Assembly: GCA_021802705.1 (NCBI GenBank)
Contig: JAJZRL010000004.1
Span: 13,862-77,861 of the forward strand
Length of the DNA stretch: 64,000 bases
From: a bacterium
GTDB taxonomy: Bacteria; Patescibacteriota; Minisyncoccia; Phycocordibacterales; Phycocordibacteraceae
Direction: 5' to 3'
The notes under the pieces were generated by a model. That model saw nothing but the letters and a program-made list of their open reading frames with translations. It did no database searches and was not told the DNA's origin. The stretch's first letter is position 1; every line of letters begins with the position of its first letter. Positions 37,273 to 55,495 of this stretch are shown here, piece after piece. A program made the translations under genes and the position numbers.

Positions 37273-38772
37273 ATGGCAACCCTGATCTCCAAAACGACCT
37301 TCTTGGAGTTTCTTATGTGCCCAAAGAATATTTGGCTAAAAATCCATAAGCCCGAACTGATAGACCTTTTTGGCCTATCGCCATTTGAACTTCAGTTGGC
37401 CGAGCAAGGCAATGAGGTTGAGGAGTGGGCCCGCAAACTCTTCCCACAAGGAGTGCTTGTCACGCAAACCGGGGACGGTGCCGTCGAAGAAACGCAGCAT
37501 CTCATGGCTGCCGAGACGCCTGCGATTTTTCAGGCAACTTTCGTGGTCGACGGCTTTATTGCGAAAAACGATGTGCTGGCGTACGACAAGAAAAATCAGA
37601 GATGGGACCTCTACGAAATTAAGGGCACGAATTCGATAAAAGAGGACGGCGGCGATCGCGACCATATCGACGACCTCGCATTCCAGGCATCCGTCCTGAG
37701 GCGCGCGGGAATCTCGACGGGTCGTTATTTCCTGATCCACCTCAATAAGGATTACATTCGTGCGGGGGACCTCGAAATAGACCAGCTCTTCCTCGTCGAG
37801 GATATGACGGAGAAAATCACGGCCCGCCTCCCTCAGGTGGAGGAGCAGATGGAGGCCGCTCGCGTGCACCTAACGAAAGAAACCGAGCCGATGGTCGGGT
37901 GCGACTGTATATACGCAGGTCGGAGTTCGCACTGCTCCACATTCAAATACTCGAATCCTCAGGTACCCGAATATTCAATCCATGATCTTGCCCGAATCGG
38001 CAACAGCAAGAAGAAGCTCAAGATCATGGTCGAACGCGGCGCCGTCGATCTCAGGGATATCCCCGAGGATGTGGAGTTGAGCGACATTCAAAAGAACCAG
38101 GTGCGTGTACATCTCACGCAGACACCCATTGTCGATGTCGATGAAATCAAGAAGGAACTCGAGGCGCTGACCTTCCCGTTGTACTTCCTCGACTACGAAA
38201 CCTTCGCTCCTGCAATTCCGATGTTCGGTGGCTACGGGCCGTATGACCGGATTCCATTCCAGTTCTCCCTTCATATTCTCCGCGATCCAAACTCGGAGCC
38301 GGAGCATGTCGAATATCTTCATCTAGACCGTTCAGATCCCTCTCAACCGGTCGCCGAGTTGCTCGCAAAACACATACAGCCGGGTGGCACTGTTATCGCC
38401 TGGAACAAGGGGTTCGAGCAGGGAGTCAATAAGGAGCTTGCGGTTCGTAAATCCGAATACGCTCAACCGCTCGAGCAGATCAACGCGCAGATGTATGACC
38501 TTCGCGACATTTTCCATAAGCAACATTATGTACATCCGGAATTTAAGGGGAAAACCTCTATCAAGAAAGTCCTCCCTCCGCTCGTGCCAGGGGTGCGACA
38601 CGCCGATCTAAACATCAAAGAAGGCGGTCAGGCATCTGACGCCTGGTCACAGATGATCGCGCCTGCCACTTCGCCGGGAGAGCGCGAGAAAATCGCTCAG
38701 GATCTTTTGACGTACTGTGGTCTCGATACGTATGCGATGTTCCAGATCTGGAAACATCTCGCCGAGCTTTAA
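37273..38772 (+). CDS. DUF2779-like protein (RecB/PD-(D/E)xK-like nuclease fold, Cys cluster)
   Basis: N-terminus ISKTTFLEFLMCPKNIWLKIHKPEL typical of DUF2779; internal CDCIYAG..SHC cluster. Confidence 0.55.
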   Translation: MATLISKTTFLEFLMCPKNIWLKIHKPELIDLFGLSPFELQLAEQGNEVEEWARKLFPQGVLVTQTGDGAVEETQHLMAAETPAIFQATFVVDGFIAKNDVLAYDKKNQRWDLYEIKGTNSIKEDGGDRDHIDDLAFQASVLRRAGISTGRYFLIHLNKDYIRAGDLEIDQLFLVEDMTEKITARLPQVEEQMEAARVHLTKETEPMVGCDCIYAGRSSHCSTFKYSNPQVPEYSIHDLARIGNSKKKLKIMVERGAVDLRDIPEDVELSDIQKNQVRVHLTQTPIVDVDEIKKELEALTFPLYFLDYETFAPAIPMFGGYGPYDRIPFQFSLHILRDPNSEPEHVEYLHLDRSDPSQPVAELLAKHIQPGGTVIAWNKGFEQGVNKELAVRKSEYAQPLEQINAQMYDLRDIFHKQHYVHPEFKGKTSIKKVLPPLVPGVRHADLNIKEGGQASDAWSQMIAPATSPGEREKIAQDLLTYCGLDTYAMFQIWKHLAEL

Positions 38773-39723: not shown

Positions 39724-41196
39724 TCATATCACGAAGATGCGCGGCACCCACGGCGGGTCCTCGGTCATCGAGAGTGCGAGCGTCGTAAACGCGTCGGCGA
39801 GGTCGTCGTGCTTCTCGACGCCGAAGTGGACGATCTGCCGGATGAGCTCTTCCGCTCCCGTGCGCGGGAACAGAATTGTGCCGTTCCGGATCATGTTTGC
39901 CGTGAGAATGAGTCGCGTGCGCTTGTCCTGGCTGCCCGGCCTGGTGGTGCGCACGTCGTGCAGCCCTTCTTTCTCGAGTTGTTGCGGAAGCGCTTTTTGG
40001 TACGCAACGTCCTCGACCACGAAGGCAGGATATCGGCCGTCGCTCTCGTAGTAGCTGTCCTCGAGCGTCTTGCAGAGGTCGACGGTCTCCGGGAACGAGA
40101 GACGGCGATTGATGATTTTCGGGAGAATATACAGTCGATAGCCCTCGCGCGTTTCGTAGAGCAGGCCTGGCACCATCGCCGTGTAGTCGGCAGTATCACG
40201 TTTCGAGATTGCGAGGTCGACGGCGATACGCACCACCATATTCGATCTGTACTTTCCTTCGAAAAGCGGCAGAGGCGGCGGGATTTCGTCGTAGTAGTGG
40301 ATCCACGCTGGGTCGATGGCCTGGTCCTCGGCGGGAACGATGTTAAGGAGGTATTCGCGTTGCCACGCATATTCGTTCGCGGCTTTTGCTTTCTCATCCT
40401 CGACATCCGCCATGGTCGGATACTTACCGAGCCAGGCGATGACGCCGTCTTTCACGAGAGGATATGCGCGGAACTCTCCCTTTATCCGACCCTTGTCCAT
40501 GTCGTCCTTGAGCCGCATAAGGGTCGAGTCTTCGTGGAGCAGGTTTCCGACGATTACCATGCGCGTATCGCGGTCTCCCGCCGGGACAACTTCGCCCGTG
40601 AGCCATTGGTACGTCTTATCGCGCCCTTCGCGCGTTTTCGTCGAAGCGATGTCCTCGAGGTCATCGCCGACGATGAGATCGGGACGGTGCTGGTTGTGGC
40701 GGAGTCCGCGAATGGCCTGCTCGGTCGAGACGGCGGTGATCCGCGCGTTTAAGCGCGAGAACACGAGCGAGGACGAACCCCATTCATTTTGCTCCTCTTG
40801 GAAGGGGCCGAGGTCATTCTTCAAGAGGTGATTGCCCTCGAGTTCGCGACGCAAGTTCATCATGTGCTGTTTCGCTTGCGCTTGCGTTTGGCACAGGAGG
40901 AGCACGAACTTCTTTTCGTGTTCGCCGAGGATCGCCCATATCGGGTACGACGTGGTGAATATCGTCGATTTTGCCGACCCGCGAAACGCGACAATGAGAA
41001 GGTTGCGCACCTCCCGATCTTCCGAAAGCCGGAACATTTCATGCTGAAACTTCGCCGTCGGATATCTCACGTAGTGCGCGAAGTAGAAGTGGAAGAACAT
41101 GAAGTGGCTCTTCCGCGTTATCGCCGCGCGGATTTTCCGGTCGCGGAACATCTTGTCCGCGAGGTCAGGCGGCAGGCCGGTCGGTTGAGGGTCCAT
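39724..41196 (-). CDS. phage terminase large subunit-like protein
   Basis: Walker A-like VAFRGSAKST, C-terminal RNaseH-like nuclease acidic residues (VAVDLAIS..D, VVEDVAY, DDLADAF). Confidence 0.7.
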   Translation of the reverse strand: MDPQPTGLPPDLADKMFRDRKIRAAITRKSHFMFFHFYFAHYVRYPTAKFQHEMFRLSEDREVRNLLIVAFRGSAKSTIFTTSYPIWAILGEHEKKFVLLLCQTQAQAKQHMMNLRRELEGNHLLKNDLGPFQEEQNEWGSSSLVFSRLNARITAVSTEQAIRGLRHNQHRPDLIVGDDLEDIASTKTREGRDKTYQWLTGEVVPAGDRDTRMVIVGNLLHEDSTLMRLKDDMDKGRIKGEFRAYPLVKDGVIAWLGKYPTMADVEDEKAKAANEYAWQREYLLNIVPAEDQAIDPAWIHYYDEIPPPLPLFEGKYRSNMVVRIAVDLAISKRDTADYTAMVPGLLYETREGYRLYILPKIINRRLSFPETVDLCKTLEDSYYESDGRYPAFVVEDVAYQKALPQQLEKEGLHDVRTTRPGSQDKRTRLILTANMIRNGTILFPRTGAEELIRQIVHFGVEKHDDLADAFTTLALSMTEDPPWVPRIFVI

Positions 41197-41614
41197 GGGG
41201 TTCGGGGTTAGCAGTCGGCGTCTCGGTGTCGGCAGCTTCGAGCGGCAAGGAGGCCAAGCGCAGCGCCTCTTTCACCACCGCTTCCTGTTCAGGAGACAGC
41301 TCGTCTTGCGGCGGTGCGGCTGCGACGACCTCGAGACGGTCGCGGAACTTCGGGTTGCGCTTCCTAAGCCAAAACGAGATGGCGTGCCAGTTCTTTTCTT
41401 TCATGAGCGTGAGGAGTTGCGATTCGCCCATATCGTTCACGATCGCTTCGCCCTCGGCGAGCGCCTCGTCCATCGCTTTCGCGAACTCCGGATCCTCCTT
41501 GCGCCAGCGGTACACGCTGTTACGGGCGATCCCGACCTTCTCGCATGCGACCTGTACGATCGGGATTTTGCGCAGCTGCTCGAGGAAGATGTCTTGGGTG
41601 CGGTCCTTTTTCAT
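41165..41614 (-). CDS. HTH DNA-binding protein, putative terminase small subunit
   Basis: VACEKVGIARNSVYRWRKED helix-turn-helix; upstream of terL; paralog 55043..55495. Confidence 0.5.
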   Translation of the reverse strand: MKKDRTQDIFLEQLRKIPIVQVACEKVGIARNSVYRWRKEDPEFAKAMDEALAEGEAIVNDMGESQLLTLMKEKNWHAISFWLRKRNPKFRDRLEVVAAAPPQDELSPEQEAVVKEALRLASLPLEAADTETPTANPEPHGPSTDRPAA

Positions 41615-42384
41615 ACCTTCTTCGCCTTAAGTCCGAACTCGCGCTCGAAGCGGTTGATAATCGTTTGGCAGTATCCCTCGTCGCGTTCGACGAGGATGGA
41701 CTTACGCTTGCATTGCTCGGCCGCGATGCCGGTCGAGCCCGATCCCGCAAAACAGTCGTACACGATGTCGCCGATGTTCGAACTGTTGAGGACGAGGCGG
41801 CGCAAGAGGCCGACGGGCTTTTGCGTCGGGTGAAGCGGGCTTCGGCTCGGTTTCGGATAGAAGAGGACGGACTTGTCCTTCGCCTTCTTGAAGTCGTGCG
41901 TTCCGTGCCACCCGTACGCGACGAGTTCGTGCTGGGGAAGATAGTCTTTGCGTCCGACGACGACGTGGTTTTTCACCCAGATAAGAAGCTGCGCGAAGCG
42001 GATGCCGGAGCGTTCCATGCCGTCCCGAAGCGCGAAGAGCATCTTGTCCGAATTGAAGACGTACGCCGCGTTCTTTGCCGCGAAATGCGGCACGACGGGC
42101 GCAAGCCAGTCTTTCGTGAACTGCGCGTATTCGGATTCTGAGACGATGCCGTCGTTGAGAATCTTCTTTTTCACGCGGATCTTTGCGAATGACTCTTTGC
42201 TCTCGACGAATGCGACGCCGTAGGGCGGGTCAACGAGCAGGAGCGCGATCTTTGTTTTGCCGAGGACGCGGTCGACGAACGCCGCGTCACGCGCGTCGCC
42301 GCATCCGAGAACATGGTCCCCGATGCGGAATACGTCGCCCGCTTTAACCGAGCTTGCGTGCTTTTTCATGGGAGAGGGCTTCAT
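41611..42384 (-). CDS. DNA methyltransferase (beta-class, DPPY)
   Basis: LLVDPPYGV motif IV then DCFAGSGSTG motif I. Confidence 0.8.
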   Translation of the reverse strand: MKPSPMKKHASSVKAGDVFRIGDHVLGCGDARDAAFVDRVLGKTKIALLLVDPPYGVAFVESKESFAKIRVKKKILNDGIVSESEYAQFTKDWLAPVVPHFAAKNAAYVFNSDKMLFALRDGMERSGIRFAQLLIWVKNHVVVGRKDYLPQHELVAYGWHGTHDFKKAKDKSVLFYPKPSRSPLHPTQKPVGLLRRLVLNSSNIGDIVYDCFAGSGSTGIAAEQCKRKSILVERDEGYCQTIINRFEREFGLKAKKV

Positions 42385-43618
42385 AGCGCTTGATAATGAG
42401 GTCGCAGAAGGCGGGTTCGAGTTCGACCAGAAACGCCCGCCGCTTCAGCTGCTGCGCGGCTACGAGCGTGCTGCCTGAGCCGCCGAAGGAATCGAGAATG
42501 AGGTCGCCCGGCCGGGTGCAGCGACGAATCGCTTTCTCGTGCAGAGTCGGCGGTTTGGCGGTCGCGTGCTGGTAGTCCTGCCCGGCCATGCGCTTCACGA
42601 GCCAGATGTTGAGAAGGTCGAGGATGTCGTCGATAGCGCGGTTACCGGTCGTAATCTCCTTGTTGAAGATCTCGTTCAGTGAATCGACGCCCTTGGCGAG
42701 GTACGGTTTGCCGCGCGTGCCGTATATGCAGGGCTCATAGCACTTGTTGAACGCGACGCTGGGTGTCGGGTTCTGCCCGTTCTTGATCCACATGCACACA
42801 CGCCGATTGGCGATACCGATTTCCTCGAAAAGCGATTGCACGAGTCCGATCTGCGATTCGTCGTTCCAGTAGAAGACATGCGCGTCGTCTTTCGCGACGG
42901 CGAGCGCCGCTTCCAAGCTCTTTTTGAGGAAGGCGCGGTACTCGGCGGGGGAGCGCTTATCGTTTACTGCGCCCCCGTACGCCTGCTTGCCGCCGATGCC
43001 GCGGTCATAGTCGATGCCGATGTTGTAGACCGGATCGCTGTATATCATCGAAGCGCGGTCCTTGCCGACGAGCCGCTTCAACACCGACGGCTCGGTCGAG
43101 TCGCCGCAGATAAGGCGATGCGGGCCGAGCTGGTACAGGTCGCCGAGCTTCGTTTTCGGTTTCTTTATCTTGAAGAGTTCTTTGTCGACCTCGAATCCGT
43201 CGTCCTCGGTTTCGAGGTTCTCGTCCCAGATATGCGCGAGATCTTCCGCGTCGAAACCGGTATCGAGCAGGGCGTCGATGTCGAAGAGCTTGAGTTTCGA
43301 GAAGTCCCATTCCCCGGTATTGTGGTTGAGGCGGAGATTGAGTTCCTTTTCTTTCTCCAAGCTCGGGAGGTTGACGTACACGACGGGGACGGTCTTGAGG
43401 CCGAGCTCTTTCGCGGCGCGAAGCCGCATATGGCCGCCGATAACGACGCCGCGGCGCTTCGGCGCGGAGTTGACGATGACCGGATCGATCATCCGGAAAC
43501 GCGCGATGCTCTCTTTGAGGTGTGCGAACGCCTCGTCGGAAATCTTGCGCGGATTGTACGGAGCGGGGCGCAAATCGCCGACCGGTACGTACACGATGCT
43601 GATGTCTTGCTTGTTCAT
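42344..43618 (-). CDS. ParB-like nuclease domain fused to DNA methyltransferase
   Basis: N-terminal ParB box (IVYVPVGDLRPAPYNPRK...GGHMRLRAAKELG), C-terminal ILDSFGGSGSTL; paralog 55482..56882. Confidence 0.8.
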   Translation of the reverse strand: MNKQDISIVYVPVGDLRPAPYNPRKISDEAFAHLKESIARFRMIDPVIVNSAPKRRGVVIGGHMRLRAAKELGLKTVPVVYVNLPSLEKEKELNLRLNHNTGEWDFSKLKLFDIDALLDTGFDAEDLAHIWDENLETEDDGFEVDKELFKIKKPKTKLGDLYQLGPHRLICGDSTEPSVLKRLVGKDRASMIYSDPVYNIGIDYDRGIGGKQAYGGAVNDKRSPAEYRAFLKKSLEAALAVAKDDAHVFYWNDESQIGLVQSLFEEIGIANRRVCMWIKNGQNPTPSVAFNKCYEPCIYGTRGKPYLAKGVDSLNEIFNKEITTGNRAIDDILDLLNIWLVKRMAGQDYQHATAKPPTLHEKAIRRCTRPGDLILDSFGGSGSTLVAAQQLKRRAFLVELEPAFCDLIIKRYEALSHEKARKLG

Positions 43619-43769
43619 ATTCGCGTTATTAATGGGGTAATAACGAGAAAGCCCACTTCGCGAAGAAGACTCGGAGAACCAGCAATGCTGATTCGTCAGG
43701 CTTTCTCTACGAAGTGGGCGTGGCGACGAGCGCGAGGCACCACCTGTAATATTCAGTTGTACCTACATT

Positions 43770-44123
43770 CTACTCCTTATCGCCCTGGTGCCAAGTGCGC
43801 CCCCGGTGGATGAGCTGGCGCCGTTGCGCCCGATTCATTCCGTCGAGGAACTCGTAGACATCCTTGCCCGCGTAGACGGGCAACCCGCCCTCCGGCATCA
43901 TCAGCTCGACTTCGCCGCGATCGACGCGTTCTTGCAGATCGGGCGGCAAGGAAAAATGCATGCCAAACGTCCCGTCTTTCGAAACGGGAGAACGCTTGGC
44001 GTAATCCTTGGGCAGTGGCGAATACATGCGTCCTTTTTGCGCCACCTTCGAGAAGCTCCCGGTTTGCCGGTGCCCGCGAACGTGCAGCATTATGTCAGTC
44101 AGGTACACGCGCTCTTTTTCCAT
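43770..44123 (-). CDS. hypothetical protein
   Basis: ORF only. Confidence 0.35.
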   Translation of the reverse strand: MEKERVYLTDIMLHVRGHRQTGSFSKVAQKGRMYSPLPKDYAKRSPVSKDGTFGMHFSLPPDLQERVDRGEVELMMPEGGLPVYAGKDVYEFLDGMNRAQRRQLIHRGRTWHQGDKE

Positions 44124-44134
44124 AGGATTGGCGA

Positions 44135-44329
44135 TTATTTCTTGCGGAGCTCCTTGATGACCTGGTCGAGCGAGTCGACGCCGAACTTATCCTTGAGCGT
44201 GCCGAGGTGCATGTTGCCGTTGATGCCCTCGAACTCCGGATAGTCCTTCTTGAGCGTTTCGACCTTCGTGTCGGAACGCTTCTCGCGCCATTCGCCGTCC
44301 TTGTCGCGAGAGCGGTTGGGTACTGCCAT
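44135..44329 (-). CDS. small conserved hypothetical protein (64 aa)
   Basis: paralog at 57169..57372 (shared KDYPEF..NGN..LGTLK-KF). Confidence 0.5.
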   Translation of the reverse strand: MAVPNRSRDKDGEWREKRSDTKVETLKKDYPEFEGINGNMHLGTLKDKFGVDSLDQVIKELRKK

Positions 44330-44401
44330 GGCGATTCGGTTAGGGCCGCGGGTAATCGGCCATCCCTATTGTAGGGGAGAGCTTGCAAGGGTGCAAGTGA
44401 T

Positions 44402-45178
44402 ATGCTAAGACATAAGGGTATGCCCACCAACCACCAGGATTCCTACGAAGCCACCGTCGAGCTCCTGCGCGAGTTCCCCCAATGGCGCGGGGTCATCGCG
44501 GCGGCGCTTGAAGAGGCTCAGACCATCACCACCGAGCGTTTCGCCGGGAAGTGGGTTCTCAACCGTGCCAAGAAGCACGGTGTTACTTGGGTGCCAAACC
44601 TCCGGAAACTCGTCTCTCACGGGATTCTCCAAAAGGAGGGCGAATCGACGCGGGGCGGCAGCCGCGCCTACTACTCCATGCCCGATCCGGCAGGAGTGGC
44701 ACGCGCGCTCCGTGACGTGAAGATTTCCTCGGTGAGCGAGCCGTATGCGGGTCACTTCGTAACGAAGGAGGGCGTCGCGCAGCGTGGCACCGTCTCCGTT
44801 CCATTTTATGCGACGCTCGCGTCGTGCGGAAGTCCGAATATGGCCGAAGCACACACCGACGAACACATGGATGTCGATGCACGTCTCATTAAGCCGAACC
44901 AGGAATATTTCCTTGTCCGCGCCGAAGGCGACTCAATGGATTTGGCGGGTATACGAAGCGGCGACCTACTCCTCGTGCGCTGTCAGGACTACGCCGACGT
45001 GGGACAAAAAGTCCTTGCGTGCATCGACGGTGGCGTGACCGTGAAGGAGTATCAACATACGGGCGAGTACGCGGTGCTCATACCGCGTTCCTCGAATCCG
45101 GCGAACAGGCCGGTCATCATGGCGGAAGACGCGCACATTCAAGGGGTCGTCGCGGCGGTAATTCCGGGCTTCACATAG
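44402..45178 (+). CDS. LexA/CI-like repressor with S24 peptidase domain
   Basis: C-terminal S24 autoproteolysis domain (GDSMDLAGIRSGDLLLV ... K in GQKVLACIDGGVTVKEY). Confidence 0.75.
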   Translation: MLRHKGMPTNHQDSYEATVELLREFPQWRGVIAAALEEAQTITTERFAGKWVLNRAKKHGVTWVPNLRKLVSHGILQKEGESTRGGSRAYYSMPDPAGVARALRDVKISSVSEPYAGHFVTKEGVAQRGTVSVPFYATLASCGSPNMAEAHTDEHMDVDARLIKPNQEYFLVRAEGDSMDLAGIRSGDLLLVRCQDYADVGQKVLACIDGGVTVKEYQHTGEYAVLIPRSSNPANRPVIMAEDAHIQGVVAAVIPGFT

Positions 45179-45185
45179 CATCACG

Positions 45186-45608
45186 ATGGACGCAAAACTC
45201 AAACATCTGGAATTCATTCAGGAGACCATCAAAAGGATGGCGGGGAATTCCTTTTTGCTGAGGGGGTGGAGCATCACGCTCGTGGTAGCCATCTTCACTA
45301 TCGCGAGTCAGACATACAAGCCCGTCTACCTATGGATCGCGCTTTTCGTAACCGGCGTGTTCTGGCTGCTCGATTCTTACTATCTCTTCCAGGAGAGACG
45401 GTTTCGTTGCCTCTACGACGAAGTGCGGGTTAAGGATCCATCCGCCATCGATTTCTCGATGGCTCTCCCAAAGAATCATTGCGATAAGTGCACGTGGCGG
45501 TCGTCCGCAAAATCTCCGATCTTCCTCGTGTTCTATGGCGTCGCGGCGGTGGTTCTGGTAGCGATATTACTAACGGTTTATCTCAACATATCCGTAACAC
45601 TTAAATAA
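45186..45608 (+). CDS. small 3-TM membrane protein (SLATT-like), putative effector
   Basis: N-terminal amphipathic helix then TM helices WSITLVVAIFTIA / VYLWIALFVTGVFWLL / IFLVFYGVAAVVLVAILL; immediately upstream of TIR gene. Confidence 0.5.
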   Translation: MDAKLKHLEFIQETIKRMAGNSFLLRGWSITLVVAIFTIASQTYKPVYLWIALFVTGVFWLLDSYYLFQERRFRCLYDEVRVKDPSAIDFSMALPKNHCDKCTWRSSAKSPIFLVFYGVAAVVLVAILLTVYLNISVTLK

Positions 45609-45610
45609 TT

Positions 45611-46216
45611 ATGACTAGGAAAATATTCTTCAGCTTCCATTACGAGCGCGACGCCTGGCGGGCTGGCCAGATTCGCAACAGCGATCTGCTCAGCCCCGAG
45701 GACAATGTCGGTTTCATCGATGCCGCCGCGTGGGAGGAGATTAAACGCAAAGGCGATGCCGCAGTAGAAAAATGGATAAACGAACAACTCGAAGGGACGT
45801 CGGTCACGGTTGTTCTCATCGGCGCAGAGACCTCACAGCGTCCCTGGGTCGATTATGAAATTCGTACGAGCTGGGAGCGCGGTAACGCGATAATCGGCCT
45901 CTACATACATAACGTTAAGGACAACGAACGCAAAACGGATATGCAGGGAGCGAATCCGCTCGACAACATCCTGCTTACCGACGGCCAACCGCTTTCTTCG
46001 GTCTGCAAGACATACGATTGGGTCAACGACGACGGTCGCAGTAATCTTGGCACCTGGGCAAACGAGGCGGCGAATGCGCGAGTGTCGTATAAAGGAGTGA
46101 CGACCCTTAAGGCTGGCACTCTGGATCGCCATGCGGCGACACCCTCGCTCCGCAAGTCCTATGCGACCACCGGCCCCACCGTTATCAACAATCCCTCCGG
46201 TCCTTGGGCGCAGTAG
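45611..46216 (+). CDS. TIR-like (DUF1863) protein, ThsB-like
   Basis: N-terminal KIFFSFHYERD, then VTVVLIGAETSQRPWVDYEI..ERGNAIIGLYIHNVKD and YDWVNDDG, matching the ThsB/DUF1863 pattern as I recall it. Confidence 0.7.
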   Translation: MTRKIFFSFHYERDAWRAGQIRNSDLLSPEDNVGFIDAAAWEEIKRKGDAAVEKWINEQLEGTSVTVVLIGAETSQRPWVDYEIRTSWERGNAIIGLYIHNVKDNERKTDMQGANPLDNILLTDGQPLSSVCKTYDWVNDDGRSNLGTWANEAANARVSYKGVTTLKAGTLDRHAATPSLRKSYATTGPTVINNPSGPWAQ

Positions 46217-46926
46217 GTATGGCTGCTGTGTTTTCCGATGAGGAAATCGCAGCGGTGAAGACTCGATATCCAGGCCTCGTCAGGGCAGGTCCGGACGTCG
46301 TTCAGGGGACGTTACGGATGGAGGCCGTCTACAACGGCGAGACCTTGAGCGGCGACTTTCAAATTCGTATCACTGCCACGAACCCGAATTCCGACGTTTT
46401 GCCTGCCCTCTACGAAACGGGTGGACGTACAGCGGCAATAGCCGCTGCGCACGGGATTACTGACTTACGAACGCTCCACCGCAACCGAGACGGAACTGCG
46501 TGCGTATGCGTAAAGCAGATTGAGCGGCGGAAATACCCGCCAGGATCCGATTTGTTGGTGTTCGTGGAAAATCTCGCGGTACCGTATTTGTATTGGCTGA
46601 CTTACTACGAACGATACGGGGAAGGTCCTTGGAAAGATTATGCTCACGGCGGTCTTGGCCTGCTGGAATTTTATTCTGAAGATACGGAGCCGCAAACCAC
46701 TGAAGGCATCAGAGAAATCCTCCCGACGCTTCGTAGAGAATTGAATTGGCAGGAGTATCATAAGCAGCTTAGAAAACCGAGTGGTGATAGGGCATGCTTG
46801 TGCGGCTCGGGCAAACCTTTTCGCACGTGCCACAAGAAGGCGTGGCAGGGAGTGGAGCGCCTTCATCGCGAGTTTCTCCGGCTCGGCATCAACCCTCGTT
46901 CGTTATTCGAGGGTATAAAAAAGTGA
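46204..46926 (+). CDS. hypothetical protein with C-terminal SEC-C metal-binding motif
   Basis: CLCGSGKPFRTCH; start overlaps TIR gene stop. Confidence 0.5.
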   Translation: MGAVGMAAVFSDEEIAAVKTRYPGLVRAGPDVVQGTLRMEAVYNGETLSGDFQIRITATNPNSDVLPALYETGGRTAAIAAAHGITDLRTLHRNRDGTACVCVKQIERRKYPPGSDLLVFVENLAVPYLYWLTYYERYGEGPWKDYAHGGLGLLEFYSEDTEPQTTEGIREILPTLRRELNWQEYHKQLRKPSGDRACLCGSGKPFRTCHKKAWQGVERLHREFLRLGINPRSLFEGIKK

Positions 46927-47073
46927 CATGCGCGTGTCCCGTTCTTATGTCACTTTTGTAACTCTGGTACGAGACCGACACGCCCTCGAAAATCGTCGGA
47001 ATCGCCGAAATGCCCTCGAATTCGCTCAAACCCTGCCGAGACCGACTGGCCTCGGACGGGAGTAGAGAAGCGC

Positions 47074-47230
47074 GCCGGAAACGCCCTTGGATACCTTACA
47101 TAGCGGGGTGCAAGACCGCTGCGGGCAACAAGGTAGTGCGGCCTGCAATGCAGACCGCCTGGCATCAAAAGTGCCGAAATTCAGTTCAAGACCGACACGG
47201 TCAAAACTCGCAAAAGGCGCTCGAAAGAGC
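47074..47230 (+). ncRNA. conserved junction element, copy C2, ending in terminator GCAAAAGGCGCTC-GAAA-GAGCGCCTTTTGC
   Basis: ~80% identical to 24111-24221 over ~95 nt; compensatory hairpin CTGCAATGCAG vs CTGCCATACAG. Confidence 0.45.
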
Positions 47231-47265
47231 GCCTTTTGCGTAGTCGGTAAAATTAAGCTAATTCG

Positions 47266-48720
47266 GTGTTTTTTGCTAGAATGGTCAGAATGGCAACGCT
47301 GAACTGGATTGGCAAAGAAGCCGTGGTAAACCACGACAAGGAGGTGCCTTTCAAGCTGCTCAAAAAGGTCCCATCCGCATCGGTCGGCAAGGAGTCGAAA
47401 AACCTCATCGTTCACGGGGATAACCTCGAAGCGCTCAAGGCGTTGATGCCTTTCTACAAGGGTAAAGTGAAATGTATTTACATTGATCCTCCCTATAATA
47501 CGGGAAACGAAAAATGGACTTATAACGATAAAGTGAATTCGCCAAAGATACGTGAATGGCTCGGGAAGGTTGTCGGAGGTGATGCAGAAGATCTGACGCG
47601 TCACGACAAGTGGCTCTGTATGATGTATCCGCGTCTCAAGTTGTTGAGAGAACTGTTAAGTGAGGACGGGGCTATTTACATGCAGTTGGACTACAACGAA
47701 GTTCATTACGGAAAGTTATTGATGGACGAAATTTTTGGTAGAGATAATTTCCAACGAGAAATCATTTGGAGAATTGGCTGGATTTCTGGTTTCAAATCGG
47801 CTGATGCAAATTGGGTTAGAAATCACGACACAATTCTTTTTTATTCTAAAAATGCCAAGAAACTTGAGTTCATAAAGCAGTACAACAAACCAGAAGAATA
47901 TCTCGAAAGGTTTAATGGTGAGACAACAAAAGCACTGGCTCAGTATTTTCAGGACCTTGGCCTAGACAAGAAAGCAACTGAGAAGGCCATAAAATATGCT
48001 GCAACAGTCGGATTGCCCGATAGATATCCCCTAGAGGATACTTGGAATGCAAGTGTTTACGACAAGCTGAACAGCATCGCCATCGTTTCCTTCTCAGGAG
48101 AGAAGGTCTCCAAGCTTTTAAACGTTGAAGAATTCAAGGGACAGAAGAGTATTGAATTGGTAAAGAGAATTATCAGGGCGCATACTAAAGAGGACGATAT
48201 TGTGCTCGATTCCTTTGCGGGAACTGGCAGTACGGGTCACGCCGTTTTGGATTTAAATAAAGAAGATGGGCAGCATAGAAAGTTTATTCTTGTGGAAATG
48301 GATGATCATGTAGCGGAAAAGATTACCTCCAAGAGGCTGAAAAAGAATATAGAGAAAAGTGGATATAAAGATAGCTTTGAATATTGTGACCTCGCCGAAC
48401 CACTCTTTGATGAGAAGGGGCAAATAAATGTGGAGTGTTCGTATGACGAGCTTGCGACCTATATCTACTTCACCGAGACCCAGACCAATCTCGAGAAAAA
48501 GACGATCAAGAAGCCGTTTATCGGCGAGAGTCACGGCACCTCGTACTACCTCATTTACGCCGGGAAGGATAAAAATGATCTCACGCGAGCGACCATCGAA
48601 AAGTTGAAATTAACTGGCCCAGCAGTAATCTACGCAGACCGATGTCTCGTGGACGAAGACGAGCTAGAAGAGAAGGGTATTGTCTTCAAGCAGATTCCAT
48701 ACGAGATCAAGGTTTACTAA
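47266..48720 (+). CDS. mod: type III R-M methyltransferase (Mod, N6-adenine)
   Basis: DPPYNTGNEKWTYNDK motif IV, C-terminal FAGTGSTGHA. Confidence 0.85.
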   Translation: MFFARMVRMATLNWIGKEAVVNHDKEVPFKLLKKVPSASVGKESKNLIVHGDNLEALKALMPFYKGKVKCIYIDPPYNTGNEKWTYNDKVNSPKIREWLGKVVGGDAEDLTRHDKWLCMMYPRLKLLRELLSEDGAIYMQLDYNEVHYGKLLMDEIFGRDNFQREIIWRIGWISGFKSADANWVRNHDTILFYSKNAKKLEFIKQYNKPEEYLERFNGETTKALAQYFQDLGLDKKATEKAIKYAATVGLPDRYPLEDTWNASVYDKLNSIAIVSFSGEKVSKLLNVEEFKGQKSIELVKRIIRAHTKEDDIVLDSFAGTGSTGHAVLDLNKEDGQHRKFILVEMDDHVAEKITSKRLKKNIEKSGYKDSFEYCDLAEPLFDEKGQINVECSYDELATYIYFTETQTNLEKKTIKKPFIGESHGTSYYLIYAGKDKNDLTRATIEKLKLTGPAVIYADRCLVDEDELEEKGIVFKQIPYEIKVY

Positions 48721-48724
48721 TCCT

Positions 48725-51001
48725 ATGCAATTCAAGCGCTATCAAACTGCTGCCCTAGAGACGCTCGACACCTTCTTGGGGAGCATCAAAAAGACGCCCT
48801 TGCGTCACGCTTTTCTCGACATAACGGACGAGAAGTACAACCAGGACTGGTTCGGTGAAGTCCCGTTCGTCTGTGTCCGCATACCAACCGGCGGAGGTAA
48901 GACTCTCGTGGCGTGTAAGTCAGTGGAACGGATCATGAGTACGATCCTCCAGTACAAGCTGGATACAGGAGTCGTCATGTGGTTCGTGCCGTCGGACTCG
49001 ATCAAGACGCAGACGCTCAAGAAGTTTAAGGACTCGCGGGACTGGCACAACGAAGTGCTGAACGAGTCTTTTGATGGGAAGGTAAAGGTTTTCTCGAATG
49101 AGGAAGCACTTACTATCACTCCTGAAGATGTGCGCAATAATCTCTGCATCATTGTGGCGAGTCTCGAGGCCTTCCGTAAGGAGGCATCCATCCAGAAGAA
49201 ATACAAAGTCTACAAGGAAAACGGCGCTCTGATGGATCACTTCTTGAATCTCAAAGACACCAAAGATCTTGAGAAGGACTCGGAAGGTGAAGTGATTAAT
49301 TCGCTCGCAAACGTCATCCGCAAGAACAACCCACTCATCGTTATCGATGAAGGCCACCACACACAGACCGAGCTTTCTGTGCAGTTCCTCTCCGACCTCA
49401 AACCGTCTTTCATTATCGAGTTCACGGCTACGCCGCGTGATGGCAGTAACGTGCTCGTGCGCATCAGTGCTTCCGAACTCAAGAATGAGCAGATGGTGAA
49501 GATTCCTATCGTGCTTGAGAGCCGTTCGCAGTGGGAGCAGGTAGTGGCAGACGGCTTGGTCAAACGAGAGGAGCTCGAGAAGCGGGCCAAGAAACTCGCC
49601 AAGGAATATATACGCCCGATTGCACTCCTTCAGGCACAGCCGAAGAGCAAGGTCCGTACCACGGTTACCGTCGAAGACCTCAAACAGATGCTTCTTGCTC
49701 GCAAGATTCCGGAGAGCCAGATCAAGATAAAGACCTCTGATGTCGATGAACTTGAGGGAATAGATCTCTTTGATAAGAAGTGCGAGGTCCGCTATATCTT
49801 GACCGTCAACGCTCTCGCAGAGGGGTGGGACTGCTCATTTGCATATGTGCTTATCTCAGTTGCAAACCTTGGAGCAAAAGTAGCCGTTGAACAGATCATC
49901 GGCCGCGTTATTCGCATGCCGAATGCAAAGAGGAAAACTGACGATGCTCTCAACCGCAGCTATGTGTTTGCCTCGGCAGCCAACTTCAATGAAGCCGCTT
50001 CTAGAATTATCGGCGGCCTCGAGGACAACGGCTACAGCCGGTCCGACTTCGTGGGAGTTGCTGAAGAGAAGGAGTATTCTGATCCTCTTGAAGCGAAGAA
50101 GGCAATCAAGAAAGATTTGAAAGTCCCGATGATGGCTATCGGGAAGCAGAAGCTCTCATTTGAGGATTTGCTCGGAGAGGATTTTGAGCTTGCGAAGCAG
50201 AACCCCGACTGCGACTTCAAGATCCATTATGACCTCGATGGGCAGGCGACTATCGACATCTCAGAAGACGAAGAGTGGCTTCAGGGGAAACAGCTAGCGC
50301 TCTCGTTCCAGTACCTCGATGGGAATCATTCTGTAGATGAGTTGGTGACGTGGCTTGATAAGAAGCTCCGTTTCCCGATGCTGAGTCCGGAGGATAAAAT
50401 CGCCTTTCTCGAGAGGGCCGTGCAGTCGCAGATAAAGAAGAATAAGCGGACGCTTCCGGAGTTGTCCGTTAACCGGTATCTTCTTGCAGAACGCCTGAAC
50501 CTTCTTATCACTGAACGACTCGAAACCTATACGAAGAAAGCATATAAGGATCTTCTTGCAAAGAAGAAGTTGGTCGTCGCGCCTTTTGATTCATACCCCG
50601 CGACTATTGCCCTCAAATCTCCGGTACCGAAGGTCTTCAATAAGAACCTCTATGAGCGTATCGACTCAATTAACGGTGAAGAGCGCGGGTTTGTGGAACG
50701 CATCGATCTTGGTGCTTTGGACAATATTGAGTTCTGGGTTCGCAACCGAGAAAAGGTAGACCCGTTTTATATCCAGGGATGGAAGAAAGGAAAGTTCTAT
50801 CCAGACTTTGTCGCCGTGACGAAGAAGGGAAATATCGTTGCGCTTGAATGGAAAGGGGAGGACCGGATCAGCAACGAGGATACTTCTTACAAAGTCGAGA
50901 TTGCAAAAGAATGGGAGAAACTGGGCAAAGGTAAGACGCATTTCTTCCTTGTGCATAACGGGAAAGTCGACGAAGTCCTTGCCGGAATCAAGGCACTCTA
51001 G
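48725..51001 (+). CDS. res: type III restriction enzyme Res subunit (helicase-nuclease)
   Basis: SF2 helicase motif I IPTGGGKT, DEGHH motif II, immediately downstream of mod. Confidence 0.85.
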   Translation: MQFKRYQTAALETLDTFLGSIKKTPLRHAFLDITDEKYNQDWFGEVPFVCVRIPTGGGKTLVACKSVERIMSTILQYKLDTGVVMWFVPSDSIKTQTLKKFKDSRDWHNEVLNESFDGKVKVFSNEEALTITPEDVRNNLCIIVASLEAFRKEASIQKKYKVYKENGALMDHFLNLKDTKDLEKDSEGEVINSLANVIRKNNPLIVIDEGHHTQTELSVQFLSDLKPSFIIEFTATPRDGSNVLVRISASELKNEQMVKIPIVLESRSQWEQVVADGLVKREELEKRAKKLAKEYIRPIALLQAQPKSKVRTTVTVEDLKQMLLARKIPESQIKIKTSDVDELEGIDLFDKKCEVRYILTVNALAEGWDCSFAYVLISVANLGAKVAVEQIIGRVIRMPNAKRKTDDALNRSYVFASAANFNEAASRIIGGLEDNGYSRSDFVGVAEEKEYSDPLEAKKAIKKDLKVPMMAIGKQKLSFEDLLGEDFELAKQNPDCDFKIHYDLDGQATIDISEDEEWLQGKQLALSFQYLDGNHSVDELVTWLDKKLRFPMLSPEDKIAFLERAVQSQIKKNKRTLPELSVNRYLLAERLNLLITERLETYTKKAYKDLLAKKKLVVAPFDSYPATIALKSPVPKVFNKNLYERIDSINGEERGFVERIDLGALDNIEFWVRNREKVDPFYIQGWKKGKFYPDFVAVTKKGNIVALEWKGEDRISNEDTSYKVEIAKEWEKLGKGKTHFFLVHNGKVDEVLAGIKAL

Positions 51002-52353
51002 CCCACTGACTCGAGGGAAATTTTTCTATCTTTCATCACGATCTTGCCGCGCATGTATTCGAGCAGGTCGCGCTTTTCCTGCACGGTTCCGTTCTGGAGT
51101 AGGTACTTCGCATAGCGTCGCACATCCATTTCTTTTGCCTTGAGCCGCTCTCCTGGATGCTGTGTGGCCGCTTGTAACTTGTTGTATCGCGAAACCTCCG
51201 CCTCAATGACTCTCCGCGCCCCGATCTCATCCAGCTCGACTTGGTCCATTATCGCCGCCAGCTGTTCGATAAGATGATCCTCGCGGATATAAGGGTTCTC
51301 GCAGGGATTGCCCTTGGATTTCGTACAGGTGTAGTAGATGTAGGAACGCTCTGAGCCGTCAGATTTGATGATCTTCTTTTTCTCTACACCCGTGATGCCG
51401 GAGCCGCATTCGCCACAGATCATGATCTTGGTGAAGGTGAATGAGTGCCGTGTATGTTTCGGTTTGTGGTCTTCGGCGAGCTTCTCTTGCACGAGCTGGT
51501 ATAACTCGCGTGTGATAAGCGGTGTGTGTTTGCCGGTATACCAGTTGCCGCTACCACGTGGGTATTCGTACACGCCGCAGTAGAAGGGATTCTTCAGTGT
51601 CGTGTATACCAGACTTACCGGTAGATGTTTATTGCTCCTCGTCCTGAAATCGATTTCTTTTAGCCATGCGTATATCTTGCGTCCGCTCCATCGTTCGTAT
51701 GCCGCCTTTTCGAACATCTGCTTCACGATAGGGGAGCGGACGGAGTCGACGAGCATTTCACACTTGTGATCGCGTCGTTTGTCATTTAGGTATCCGAGCG
51801 GAGCGACTCCAGGCAAGAGTCCCATCTCGGCTCGGGTCTTCAGGCCGCGCTTCACGTTGATGCGCTTGTTGTCGTTCTCAAGCTTTGCTTGGCTCCCCAG
51901 AATCATGAGAAGGAATTTCTCATTCGGGTTATTCGAGAACTTTTGATTGTATGTCCGTATCTCGCGCAGAAGTCCTGCGTCCATGAGGTCTATAACTTTC
52001 CCGAGATCGCCCGCGTTACGCGCGATGCGATCTGGCGCCCAAGTGAGCAGGCCATCGAACTTACCGATCCGTATCTCGTCGATGATTTGGTTGTACACCG
52101 GCCGTTGGCCAGTCTCTTTTGCAGAGTGCGATTCGCGTTTAATCTCGACCACGTTTATGCCGTCGCGCCTGGCGAGCTCGGTCATTTCCTTGATCTGACT
52201 GTCGATCGATAGCGCTTGAACCTCATCTTGCTCGGTTGATTTGCGGGCGTATAGACAGTACCGGATCGGGTGTATCACCTCGACGACCGGCATGCTTCCC
52301 ATTTCTCTCGCTAAAGTGGCTTCCATTTCCTTGTATTTACTGGCTAATGGCAC
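50998..52353 (-). CDS. large serine recombinase (paralog of 30579..31904)
   Basis: YARKSTEQD, CGECGSGITG; ~85% identical to the first copy by eye. Confidence 0.9.
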   Translation of the reverse strand: MPLASKYKEMEATLAREMGSMPVVEVIHPIRYCLYARKSTEQDEVQALSIDSQIKEMTELARRDGINVVEIKRESHSAKETGQRPVYNQIIDEIRIGKFDGLLTWAPDRIARNAGDLGKVIDLMDAGLLREIRTYNQKFSNNPNEKFLLMILGSQAKLENDNKRINVKRGLKTRAEMGLLPGVAPLGYLNDKRRDHKCEMLVDSVRSPIVKQMFEKAAYERWSGRKIYAWLKEIDFRTRSNKHLPVSLVYTTLKNPFYCGVYEYPRGSGNWYTGKHTPLITRELYQLVQEKLAEDHKPKHTRHSFTFTKIMICGECGSGITGVEKKKIIKSDGSERSYIYYTCTKSKGNPCENPYIREDHLIEQLAAIMDQVELDEIGARRVIEAEVSRYNKLQAATQHPGERLKAKEMDVRRYAKYLLQNGTVQEKRDLLEYMRGKIVMKDRKISLESVG

Positions 52354-55042: not shown

Positions 55043-55495
55043 TCACGGTGCCGCTTCGTTCCATGGGTCTGTCAGTGAGCCTAGTCTCCTGTCTCGCTTG
55101 ATGTGATTTTCTCGTGTCGTCTCTTCGTTTGCGTGTTGGTATTCACGTGGATCGACCACTCGAATCTGCACGGTCTGGACAGGCGGTGCTTCCTTGATAT
55201 ACGGAGCGGGCTTGCGCGGTCGGTAGTAGCGCTTTGAGTTCGCTTCGAGAATCAGTTTGATCGCACCGAAGTGTTCCTTGTCGGCCATCTTCACGAGTTT
55301 GCTCTCGGCATGGTCGACCAGCGTGTCCCGCCCGCGTTTCAGCGAACGATCGTACTTCTTTTTGAAGTCAGGGTCGTCCTCGAGCCAGCGATAGATGGTC
55401 GCTTTGCTGATACCGGCACGCTTGCACACCACCGATACGATCGGCAGGTTCTCGAGTTCATCGAGAAATTTCTGTTTATCATCAGGCGGCACCAT
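55043..55495 (-). CDS. HTH DNA-binding protein, putative terminase small subunit
   Basis: VCKRAGISKATIYRWLEDDPDF; paralog of 41165..41614. Confidence 0.5.
   Translation of the reverse strand: MVPPDDKQKFLDELENLPIVSVVCKRAGISKATIYRWLEDDPDFKKKYDRSLKRGRDTLVDHAESKLVKMADKEHFGAIKLILEANSKRYYRPRKPAPYIKEAPPVQTVQIRVVDPREYQHANEETTRENHIKRDRRLGSLTDPWNEAAP

What the first reader, a model, noticed from the sequence alone, without database searches (positions are those of the whole stretch)
45186..46926. Non-canonical Thoeris-like locus: ThsB-like TIR protein paired with a tiny 3-TM protein and a SEC-C-motif protein
45611..46216 encodes a TIR-like/DUF1863 protein. Its N-terminus (KIFFSFHYERD) and internal blocks (VVLIGAETSQRPWVDYEI, GNAIIGLYIHNVKD, YDWVNDDG) line up with Thoeris ThsB as I recall it. 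No SIR2/SLOG or Macro-domain ThsA is present. Instead the TIR gene is preceded (3-nt gap) by a 140-aa protein with an N-terminal amphipathic helix and three TM helices (SLATT-like architecture), and is overlapped at its 3' end by a 240-aa protein ending in a SEC-C zinc motif (CLCGSGKPFRTCH). The operon sits immediately downstream of a LexA/CI-like repressor inside a prophage-like module, which is a classic defence-moron position. A TIR sensor signalling to a minimal membrane effector of this size has not, to my knowledge, been characterised.
Basis: partly seen in the sequence, partly recalled or inferred. Interest (0 to 1): 0.75.

Follow-up and report, generated by a model that had tools for sequence, protein, structure and literature searches.

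The report
Thoeris defence with E2-only regulator
This is a prophage-carried anti-phage system of a recently described kind (type V Thoeris: a TIR signal-maker plus a small membrane-killing protein), with one extra gene, a ubiquitin-E2-like enzyme so far known only from CBASS systems, which probably attaches itself to a special tail on the TIR protein.

Summary
The three genes are real and tightly packed: 45186-45608, 45611-46216 and 46219-46926. The TIR call is correct (Pfam ThsB_TIR 1.8e-26).

The 'uncharacterised minimal membrane effector' is not new. The TM+TIR pair is PADLOC candidate PDC-M50. The TIR domain is 87.8% identical to an entry listed as type V Thoeris (ThsB + 3-TM ThsF) in Yirmiya et al., bioRxiv Dec 2025.

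In about 30 loci from several phyla this E2 directly follows a ThsB gene, whatever the effector. All 22 E2-linked TIRs have a 32-58 aa C-terminal tail. Of 16 unlinked TIRs, 15 lack it; the exception has Cap2/Cap3. The tail ends PxxPW-[small]-x. CD-NTases paired with related E2s end almost identically (PSKPWAQ versus PSGPWAQ here).

Best reading: an E2-only accessory covalently processes ThsB's tail, as SmE2 does to CdnG. I found no paper describing this combination. It is a new variant of known kinds, of moderate interest.

The parts
44402..45178 (+). LexA/UmuD-like S24 autopeptidase repressor. Public gene calls start at 44420 (252 aa). It is the prophage-backbone gene immediately upstream, 7 nt before the TM gene, so it is probably co-transcribed with the defence genes.
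   Evidence: Pfam Peptidase_S24 2.5e-21. NCBIfam LexA/UmuD sub-threshold. PHROG UmuD-like / transcriptional repressor. The same TerL / ParB-MTase / S24 backbone occurs in L010, L017, L020, L028, L038 and L099.
45186..45608 (+). ThsF-like three-helix membrane protein (140 aa). Predicted effector of the type V Thoeris / PDC-M50 pair.
   Evidence: PADLOC PDC-M50A 2.7e-45. 385 homologues. Almost always adjacent to a TIR gene. AF2 pLDDT 88.7 with three long helices. 39% identical to the partner of a homologue of the validated B. thuringiensis ThsB. Pfam PF10028 is only sub-threshold, in 19 of 71 relatives.
45611..46081 (+). ThsB TIR domain (residues 1-157), with the catalytic-Glu motif WVDYE83I.
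   Evidence: Pfam ThsB_TIR 1.8e-26. PADLOC ThsB 1.8e-64 and PDC-M50B 3.5e-61. 87.8% identical to IMG 2709899069, listed as 'DUF2270 - Type V'. 42.9% identical to B. cereus MSX-D12 ThsB, with the WV(R/D)YEI motif aligned.
46082..46216 (+). C-terminal tail of ThsB (residues 158-201 plus stop), ending in the tag P195-S-G-P-W-A200-Q201 (nt 46193-46213). Predicted recognition and processing site for the E2.
   Evidence: A tail of 32-58 aa is present in 22 of 22 E2-linked TIRs. It is absent (2-11 aa) in 15 of 16 TIRs without E2; the exception has Cap2/Cap3. The conserved end is PxxPW[A/S/C/G]x. The same ending occurs on CD-NTases paired with related E2s.
46219..46926 (+). E2-only (Ubc-fold) accessory enzyme, 235 aa. 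H87 (nt 46477-46479) and C95 (nt 46501-46503) are the predicted catalytic pair. H143 is also invariant. C-terminal SEC-C-like zinc knuckle C193-H205 (nt 46795-46833).

Best explanation
The locus is a prophage-borne type V-like Thoeris system with an E2-only accessory of the kind known from 'type II short' (E2-) CBASS. It consists of a ThsF-like 3-TM effector, a ThsB TIR protein and the E2.

Proposed mechanism:
1. The genes sit 7 nt downstream of the element's LexA-like repressor and are probably expressed with it in the lysogen. The position is shown; the expression is inferred.
2. On infection, ThsB (TIR, catalytic Glu83) converts NAD+ into a cADPR-type signal. This is inferred by analogy; 3'cADPR in the validated B. 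thuringiensis type V system is the closest precedent.
3. The signal activates oligomers of the 140-aa membrane protein, which breach the membrane and abort infection. This is inferred from the type V Thoeris work.
4. The E2 acts on ThsB, not on the effector. It recognises the ThsB-specific C-terminal tail ending ...PSGPW-A200-Q201. Using Cys95/His87 as a cysteine protease-ligase, it removes the terminal residue and forms a ThsB~E2 thioester, then an isopeptide link to E2, to ThsB or to another protein. This would set the activity threshold of the TIR enzyme, as SmE2 does for CdnG. The genetic linkage and the shared tag are shown here; the chemistry is inferred.
For: Base system:
- PADLOC PDC-M50A/B and ThsB hits; Pfam ThsB_TIR.
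- The TIR domain is 87.8% identical to a Table S1 'DUF2270 - Type V' entry.
- The TM family is nearly always next to a TIR gene in 80 metagenome loci and on 141 plasmids.
- It also sits next to homologues of the validated type V ThsB.

E2 identity:
- PADLOC E2 3e-30.
- An HxN...C signature with invariant H87, C95 and H143.

Linkage to ThsB:
- The E2 gene is immediately downstream of a close ThsB homologue in 17 of 24 genome loci. These come from Patescibacteria, Saccharibacteria, Gemmatimonadota, Alpha- and Gammaproteobacteria and Binatota. The same holds in further metagenome loci and in independent gene calls.
- The pairing persists when the effector changes: ThsF-like TM, SLOG-patatin, or an unknown 471-aa protein.

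Tail:
- 22 of 22 E2-linked TIRs have a 32-58 aa tail. 15 of 16 TIRs without E2 have 2-11 aa. The one exception is followed by Cap2 (E2-E1) and a JAB gene. Fisher 1e-9, not corrected for relatedness.
- Tails end PxxPW[A/S/C/G] plus 1-12 leaving residues. The divergent E2 subgroup goes with the long-leaving-peptide subtype.
- CD-NTases paired with related E2s carry the same ending: L019 ...GPTIIRNPSKPWAQ against the window's ...GPTVINNPSGPWAQ; L022 ...NPNQPWGF.

Precedent:
- SmE2 uses C101/H87 to cut off the last residue after the conserved penultimate Gly406 of CdnG. It then forms a thioester and an isopeptide.
- Thoeris operons with Cap2/Cap3 and tailed ThsB have already been noted.
Against: - No biochemistry or phage assay exists for this system or for any E2-linked ThsB.
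- The conserved small residue is usually Ala or Ser rather than the Gly of CdnG or ubiquitin. In SmCdnG, G406V and G406L abolished linkage, so the chemistry may differ.
- The effector family does not reach Pfam's DUF2270 threshold, so the ThsF assignment rests on association and on the preprint's table.
- The signal molecule is unknown. In the preprint, one of two type V systems did not respond to 3'cADPR.
- The loci are not phylogenetically independent. Several share one prophage backbone.
- Whether the E2 activates or restrains ThsB cannot be told from sequence.
Confidence: 0.7

Rival explanations
1. The E2-like protein binds the ThsB tail non-covalently, as a scaffold, chaperone or inhibitor that is released on infection. 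There is no protease or ligase chemistry.
For: The penultimate residue is mostly Ala or Ser rather than Gly. The extra C-terminal helical region and zinc knuckle could be a protein- or membrane-binding module. In E2-CBASS, extensive non-covalent interfaces also exist.
Against: His87, Cys95 and His143 are invariant across 80 homologues and across CBASS-linked relatives. That is hard to explain without catalysis. The 'small residue plus short leaving peptide' layout mirrors the SmCdnG G406-E407 cleavage site.
Confidence: 0.13
2. The TIR protein is a NAD+-depleting effector rather than a signal producer. In this reading the membrane protein or the E2 is the sensor or regulator, so this is a PDC-M50-type system that is not Thoeris-like signalling.
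For: Many bacterial TIRs are NADase effectors (one search lists CBASS, Pycsar and pAgo contexts). No signal has been measured for this clade. PADLOC lists PDC-M50 only as a candidate.
Against: The protein is a ThsB-family TIR (PF08937) and 87.8% identical to one classed as type V. Type V ThsB proteins were shown to make 3'cADPR on infection. The same ThsB clade pairs with alternative effectors that carry SLOG signal-binding domains, which fits a diffusible signal.
Confidence: 0.08
3. The E2-like gene is an unrelated neighbour: a separate moron, or part of the Type III restriction-modification unit downstream.
For: It is the last gene before a 340-nt gap and a compositionally different Type III R-M unit.
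Against: Synteny with ThsB at 0-15 nt spacing holds in about 30 loci from several phyla and in different genomic contexts. The TIR tail co-occurs almost perfectly with the E2. The Type III R-M is absent from almost all other loci.
Confidence: 0.03
4. The tail is a bait cleaved by phage proteases, or a degron for host proteases. The E2 would only repair or monitor it.
For: Protease-triggered activation of CBASS CD-NTases was reported recently, with Cap2/Cap3 needed in cells but not in vitro.
Against: That work concerns an internal activation loop, not the C-terminal tail. The strict conservation of only the last 6-7 residues, and its sharing between TIR and CD-NTase partners of one E2 family, point to E2 recognition.
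Confidence: 0.06

Closest known systems
Type V Thoeris (ThsB + ThsF/DUF2270), Yirmiya et al., bioRxiv 10.64898/2025.12.03.692087; listed in PADLOC-DB 2.0.0 as candidate PDC-M50
   Same: A ThsB-family TIR next to a roughly 130-140-aa protein with three membrane helices. The TIR domain is 87.8% identical to a catalogued type V entry. The effector family is the one found next to homologues of the validated B. thuringiensis ThsB.
   Different: This locus has a third gene (E2) and a 44-aa tail on ThsB that plain type V systems lack. The effector does not pass Pfam's PF10028 threshold. The gene order is effector then TIR.
E2-CBASS ('type II short' CBASS), Serratia marcescens CdnG-E2 (PDB 8hsb; Yan et al. 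bioRxiv 10.1101/2022.05.25.493364; Xiao et al. mLife 2026, PMC12948482)
   Different: The partner is a TIR protein, not a CD-NTase, so the locus is not CBASS. The tag ends in Ala/Ser-x rather than Gly-x. This E2 is 235 aa with a helical extension and a SEC-C-like zinc knuckle, whereas SmE2 is about 160 aa.
Thoeris operons with Cap2 + Cap3 (E1-E2 fusion and JAB), noted in Yirmiya et al. 2025, Fig. 6F/S10A
   Same: Ubiquitin-like conjugation machinery attached to Thoeris, with a tailed ThsB. One such locus (L038) occupies the same prophage hotspot with the same TM and TIR families.
   Different: There is no E1 (adenylation) domain and no JAB isopeptidase here, so activation must be ATP-independent peptide exchange, as in E2-CBASS. 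The tail motif differs: L038 has a Pro-rich tail ending in G, against PxxPWAx here.
Type VII Thoeris / CBASS SLATT effectors
   Same: A small membrane-spanning effector activated by a nucleotide signal.
   Different: No SLATT family hit for the 140-aa protein or for 71 relatives. This protein has three TM helices rather than two.

Membership tests
Thoeris (generic) | ThsB-type TIR domain protein with the catalytic Glu | tested here: met
   PF08937 1.8e-26, above the cutoff. WVDYE83I aligns with WVRYEI of B. cereus MSX-D12 ThsB. That this Glu is catalytic is established knowledge, not tested here.
Thoeris (generic) | Adjacent effector gene in the same operon | tested here: met
   The TM gene ends 2 nt before thsB. 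The pair is conserved in most of 80 metagenome loci and on plasmids.
Thoeris (generic) | Infection-triggered NAD+-derived signal that activates the effector; anti-phage protection | not testable with these tools
   Needs phage challenge and LC-MS.
Type V Thoeris (ThsB + ThsF) | Effector with three membrane-spanning helices | tested here: met
   The AF2 model has helices 2-43, 47-82 and 111-139. Hydrophobic segments are seen in the alignment.
Type V Thoeris (ThsB + ThsF) | Effector belongs to Pfam PF10028 (DUF2270) | tested here: not met
   No hit for the window protein at E<=0.1. Only sub-threshold hits in 19 of 71 relatives, best 3e-4. None for the plasmid relatives. The relationship is at best remote at the sequence-profile level.
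Type V Thoeris (ThsB + ThsF) | Catalogued as type V by the authors who defined the type | tested here: met
   Table S1 entry IMG 2709899069, 'DUF2270 - Type V', has a TIR domain 87.8% identical to the window's. The effector sequence of that entry was not available to me.
Type V Thoeris (ThsB + ThsF) | Effector homologous to partners of the experimentally validated ThsB lineage | tested here: met
   The Terribacillus pT1 ThsB is 47% identical to B. thuringiensis DAR 81934 ThsB. It is followed by a 136-aa protein 39% identical (E 1e-29) to the window TM protein. The same holds in Klebsiella.
PADLOC candidate PDC-M50 | Both component HMMs (M50A, M50B) hit adjacent genes | tested here: met
   2.7e-45 and 3.5e-61.
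E2-only CBASS accessory E2 | Ubc/E2 fold | tested here: met
E2-only CBASS accessory E2 | Conserved catalytic Cys with an upstream His (protease-type pair), and a second His | tested here: met
   H87, C95 and H143 are invariant and kept in CD-NTase-linked relatives. The residue equivalence to SmE2 H87/C101/H152 is inferred; it was not superposed residue by residue.
E2-only CBASS accessory E2 | Partner enzyme is a CD-NTase | tested here: not met
   The upstream gene is a TIR. There is no CD-NTase in the locus. It therefore works like an E2-CBASS accessory but is not CBASS.
E2-only CBASS accessory E2 | Partner carries a C-terminal extension with a conserved small penultimate residue | tested here: met
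   The tail is present only with E2 or Cap2 and ends PW-[A/S/C/G]-x. The same ending is found on CD-NTases in L019 and L022. The residue is Ala/Ser more often than Gly.
E2-only CBASS accessory E2 | Covalent E2-partner adduct | not testable with these tools
   Needs co-expression, SDS-PAGE and mass spectrometry.
SLATT effector | Match to a SLATT family model | tested here: not met
   No SLATT family among the Pfam hits of the protein or of 71 relatives, even at E<=10.
SEC-C motif (PF02810) | CxC(x8)C(H/C) zinc knuckle matching the family model | tested here: inconclusive
   17.1 bits against a cutoff of 20.4. The family profile hits SecA zinc-peptide structures at E 0.02-0.04. All four ligands are invariant.

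The most novel reading that the evidence does not exclude
This stand-alone E2 family reads a short portable C-terminal tag (PxxPW-[small]-x). That tag has been grafted onto unrelated immune signal synthases (CD-NTases and TIR/ThsB proteins) and possibly onto a small membrane protein (L018). If so, E2-only conjugation would be an enzyme-agnostic, ATP-independent regulatory module. TIR proteins themselves would be used as ubiquitin-like modifiers, defining a previously undescribed 'E2-Thoeris' class parallel to E2-CBASS.
Probability: 0.5. Interest if true: 0.65.

Novelty: new variant of a known kind. Interest (0 to 1): 0.5.

Why it matters
- How Thoeris TIR enzymes are kept silent and then switched on is still unclear. 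A covalent E2-dependent step acting on ThsB would be a new layer of control.
- The work would extend the ubiquitin-like 'cGASylation' idea from CBASS to TIR signalling.
- A near-identical tag on a nucleotidyltransferase and on a TIR protein gives a simple, testable rule for what the E2 recognises. It also offers a handle for engineering, for example tag swaps.
- The finding argues that annotation tools (PADLOC, DefenseFinder) should score E2-only accessories outside CBASS.

Tried and rejected
- **DNA similarity** of 44300-47100 to E. coli genomes, phages and plasmids gave nothing useful. The only hit was a 262-nt, 68% match in a Halorhabdus plasmid.
- **IMG/VR scan** with the E2 alignment found no relatives.
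- **'PDC-M50'** appears in no paper of the library.
- **Cluster look-up** gave no names or accessions for the window proteins.
- **AFDB fold library** was unavailable.
- **PDB sequence search** with the E2 profile found only the zinc-knuckle peptides of SecA and YchJ, not SmE2.
- **Closest plasmid homologues of the validated ThsB** (B. cereus, Priestia; L110, L111) had no TM-family neighbour, so I used the Terribacillus and Klebsiella plasmids instead.
- **S24 gene as a system-specific regulator.** It is enriched near E2-linked loci (6 of 11 against 1 of 15). I rejected the idea because almost all S24-positive loci share the same TerL / ParB-MTase backbone. The enrichment reflects one prophage family with a defence hotspot.
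- **C97 as catalytic Cys.** I first took it as catalytic because of its canonical HPN-to-Cys spacing. I rejected this because only C95 is conserved in the CBASS-linked relatives.
- **Tail-length formula.** My first version was wrong for long alignments and was corrected.
Full report

The three + strand ORFs exist. The DNA shows a TAA stop at 45606-45608, two bases, then the TIR ATG at 45611. It then shows a TAG stop at 46214-46216, two bases, then an ATG at 46219. Homologues of the third protein are about 235 aa, and public gene calls on three contigs carrying identical proteins start it at that ATG. So it abuts the TIR gene rather than overlapping it.

The TIR identification holds: Pfam ThsB_TIR 1.8e-26 and PADLOC ThsB 1.8e-64. 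An S24 LexA/UmuD-like gene ends 7 nt before the first gene.

**2. The TM + TIR pair is a known kind.**

- PADLOC-DB 2.0.0 matches the 140-aa protein to PDC-M50A (2.7e-45) and the TIR to PDC-M50B (3.5e-61).
- Yirmiya et al. (bioRxiv 10.64898/2025.12.03.692087) defined Thoeris types V-XI. Type V is ThsB plus ThsF, a three-TM 'DUF2270' protein modelled as a heptameric channel. It was validated against phages, with 3'cADPR as the signal in one system.
- Their Table S1 lists IMG 2709899069 as 'DUF2270 - Type V'. Its TIR domain is 87.8% identical (130 of 148) to the window's.
- The TM family has 385 detectable homologues. In 80 metagenome loci it is almost always next to a TIR gene. It lies next to TIR genes on 141 plasmids, including IncC plasmids of E. 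coli and Klebsiella.
- On the Terribacillus and Klebsiella plasmids it follows homologues (47% and 39.5% identity) of the validated B. thuringiensis ThsB. The Terribacillus protein is 39% identical to the window protein.
- Caveat: the family does not reach Pfam's PF10028 threshold. There are only weak hits in 19 of 71 members. There is no SLATT hit.

**3. The third protein is an E2.**

- PADLOC's CBASS 'E2' models match it at 3e-30, and its E1-E2 model at 1.5e-14.
- Eighty homologues share an invariant H87-R-N...A-C95-V-C97 stretch, H143-G, E150, and a C193xC195...C204H205 knuckle.
- The AF2 model is confident (pLDDT 93.7).
- The knuckle resembles the SecA zinc peptide.
- The family has 1,959 representatives at E<=1e-3 and 110 at E<=1e-30 among 1.84 billion cluster representatives.

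**4. Comparative genomics.**

Sampling from the E2 side (24 genome loci):
- The E2 gene lies directly downstream of a close ThsB homologue in 17 loci. These come from Patescibacteria, Saccharibacteria, Gemmatimonadota, Alpha- and Gammaproteobacteria and Binatota.
- The effector varies. It is the ThsF-like TM protein upstream in L004, L005, L010, L014, L015, L017 and L020. It is a SLOG-patatin protein downstream of the E2 in L011 and L013. It is an unannotated 471-aa protein in L006-L009.
- More distant E2 relatives (L019, L022-L024) follow bona fide CD-NTases. L023 also has a patatin gene (Pfam), and the neighbouring gene in L024 has a patatin-like motif. This is classical E2-CBASS.

The E2 thus travels with the signal-producing enzyme, not with the effector.

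Sampling from the TM side found further TM-TIR-E2 triads: L028, L029, L054, L072/L081, L085 and L099. Independent gene calls confirmed more (L114-L116).

**5. The tail.**

- ThsB here is 201 aa, but the PADLOC ThsB models end near residue 157.
- Across loci, 22 of 22 E2-linked TIRs carry 32-58 residues beyond that point. Of 16 TIRs with at least 700 nt of downstream sequence and no E2, 15 carry only 2-11 residues.
- The single exception, L038, is followed by a 603-aa E2-E1 fusion and a JAB-like gene, i.e. Cap2/Cap3.
- Two tailed TIRs on short contigs (L083, L084) are followed by ORFs cut off by the contig end that may be divergent E2 N-termini.
- The loci are related, so Fisher's 1e-9 overstates the independence.
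- The tails are variable except at the very end: P-x-x-P-W-[A/S/C/G] followed by 1-12 residues. A divergent E2 subgroup goes with the long-leaving-peptide form, which suggests co-evolution.
- Most tellingly, the CD-NTase paired with the closest CBASS-type E2 ends ...GPTIIRNPSKPWAQ, against ...GPTVINNPSGPWAQ for the window ThsB. L022's CD-NTase ends ...NPNQPWGF.

Two unrelated enzymes carrying the same terminal tag next to the same E2 family is strong evidence that the tag is what the E2 recognises.

**6. Mechanistic precedent.**

In S. marcescens E2-CBASS, the E2 acts as a cysteine protease-ligase using C101 and H87. It removes E407 after the conserved penultimate G406 of CdnG. It then forms a thioester, followed by an isopeptide (K159) or CdnG chains. 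CdnGs of E2-CBASS have a C-terminal E2-binding extension. Yirmiya et al. also noted Thoeris operons with Cap2/Cap3 and tailed ThsB.

None of my literature searches turned up a description of an E2-only accessory with Thoeris. The library does not contain all journals.

**7. Context.**

- Upstream are a large terminase (39724-41196), two DNA methylases, one of them ParB-fused, and the S24 repressor.
- Downstream are a lower-GC Type III R-M pair (47266-51001) and a serine integrase (50998-52353).
- The S24 gene is enriched near E2-linked loci. Nearly all of those loci share the TerL / ParB-MTase / S24 backbone.
- The better reading is a family of integrative phage-like elements with a defence hotspot just downstream of the repressor. 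In L038 that hotspot holds a Cap2/Cap3 Thoeris instead.
- Outside this backbone, TIR-E2 pairs have other regulators: XRE-HTH plus an M78 IrrE-like peptidase, or WYL-WCX.

**8. Verdict.**

- The claimed novelty (a TIR signalling to a tiny membrane effector) is already known as type V Thoeris / PDC-M50.
- The 'SEC-C protein' is an E2-only accessory of the CBASS type II-short kind. It is genetically coupled to a tagged ThsB.
- I rate this a new variant of known kinds: an 'E2-Thoeris'. The mechanism (E2-mediated covalent processing of ThsB's tail) is plausible and directly testable, but it is inferred and not shown.

Noticed in passing
L018:5660-5998 (+), just upstream of the E2 gene at 6001-6705 (Parcubacteria MAG JAQBRJ010000012.1): A small ORF of about 100 aa, with one or two hydrophobic segments and no TIR or CD-NTase similarity, ends ...PIIDPSGPWASN. 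That is the same tag as on the E2-linked TIRs and CD-NTases. The E2 family may have a third kind of tagged partner.
   Followed up: partly
window 39724-52353; L010, L017, L020, L028, L038, L099, L114: A conserved phage-like backbone: TerL, methylase, ParB-methylase, S24 repressor, cargo, serine integrase. It carries different defence cargo at the same spot: TM-TIR-E2 in most, TM-TIR-Cap2-Cap3 in L038, and here an additional Type III R-M. This is a defence hotspot downstream of the repressor in elements of Patescibacteria-type and other MAGs.
   Followed up: partly
window 47266-51001 (+): A Type III restriction-modification pair: Mod 484 aa (PADLOC MTase_III 7e-140) and Res 773 aa (REase_III 2e-92). 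Its GC content is clearly lower (0.46-0.50) than that of the Thoeris-E2 genes (0.53-0.55) and the phage genes upstream (0.58-0.60). This suggests separately acquired cargo.
   Followed up: partly
window 42344-43618 (-) and 55482-56882 (-); also 39724-41196 (-) and 55043-55495 (-): There are two ParB-N-terminal / N6_N4 DNA methylase fusion genes. One lies near a large terminase gene and the other is adjacent to a small-terminase-like gene. These may be two related elements in tandem, or a rearranged prophage.
   Followed up: no
L006-L009, e.g. L008:6399-7814 (+) (Reyranella / Enhydrobacter): TIR-E2 pairs are followed by a 471-aa protein with no Pfam hit. They are preceded by a divergent XRE-HTH plus M78 IrrE-like peptidase pair (CapH/CapP-like). 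The 471-aa protein is a candidate uncharacterised Thoeris effector.
   Followed up: partly
L011:6748-8424, L013:6769-8430 (+): TIR-E2 followed by a SLOG (LD_cluster2) plus patatin protein. This effector class was predicted by Yirmiya et al., but the two representatives they tested in E. coli gave no defence. Here it comes with the E2 accessory.
   Followed up: partly
L029, L054, L072/L081, L085, L099 (metagenome loci): A divergent E2 subgroup (E about 1e-26 to 1e-31 against the family profile) pairs with ThsB tails that keep PW-[C/S/G] but carry an 8-12-residue leaving peptide rich in D/N and ending in R (L029's tail differs). This looks like co-evolution of the enzyme and its tag.
   Followed up: partly
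window 35801-36934 (+) and 37273-38772 (+): An IS256-family (Transposase_mut) transposase and a DUF2779 protein lie just upstream of the phage-like block, according to public gene calls on the matching contig.
   Followed up: no
window 45709-45970, matching NC_021913.1 188584-188845: The only DNA-level match of the locus in the plasmid collection is a 262-nt, 67.9%-identical stretch of the TIR gene in a Halorhabdus tiamatea (archaeal) plasmid, with no annotated feature there.
   Followed up: no
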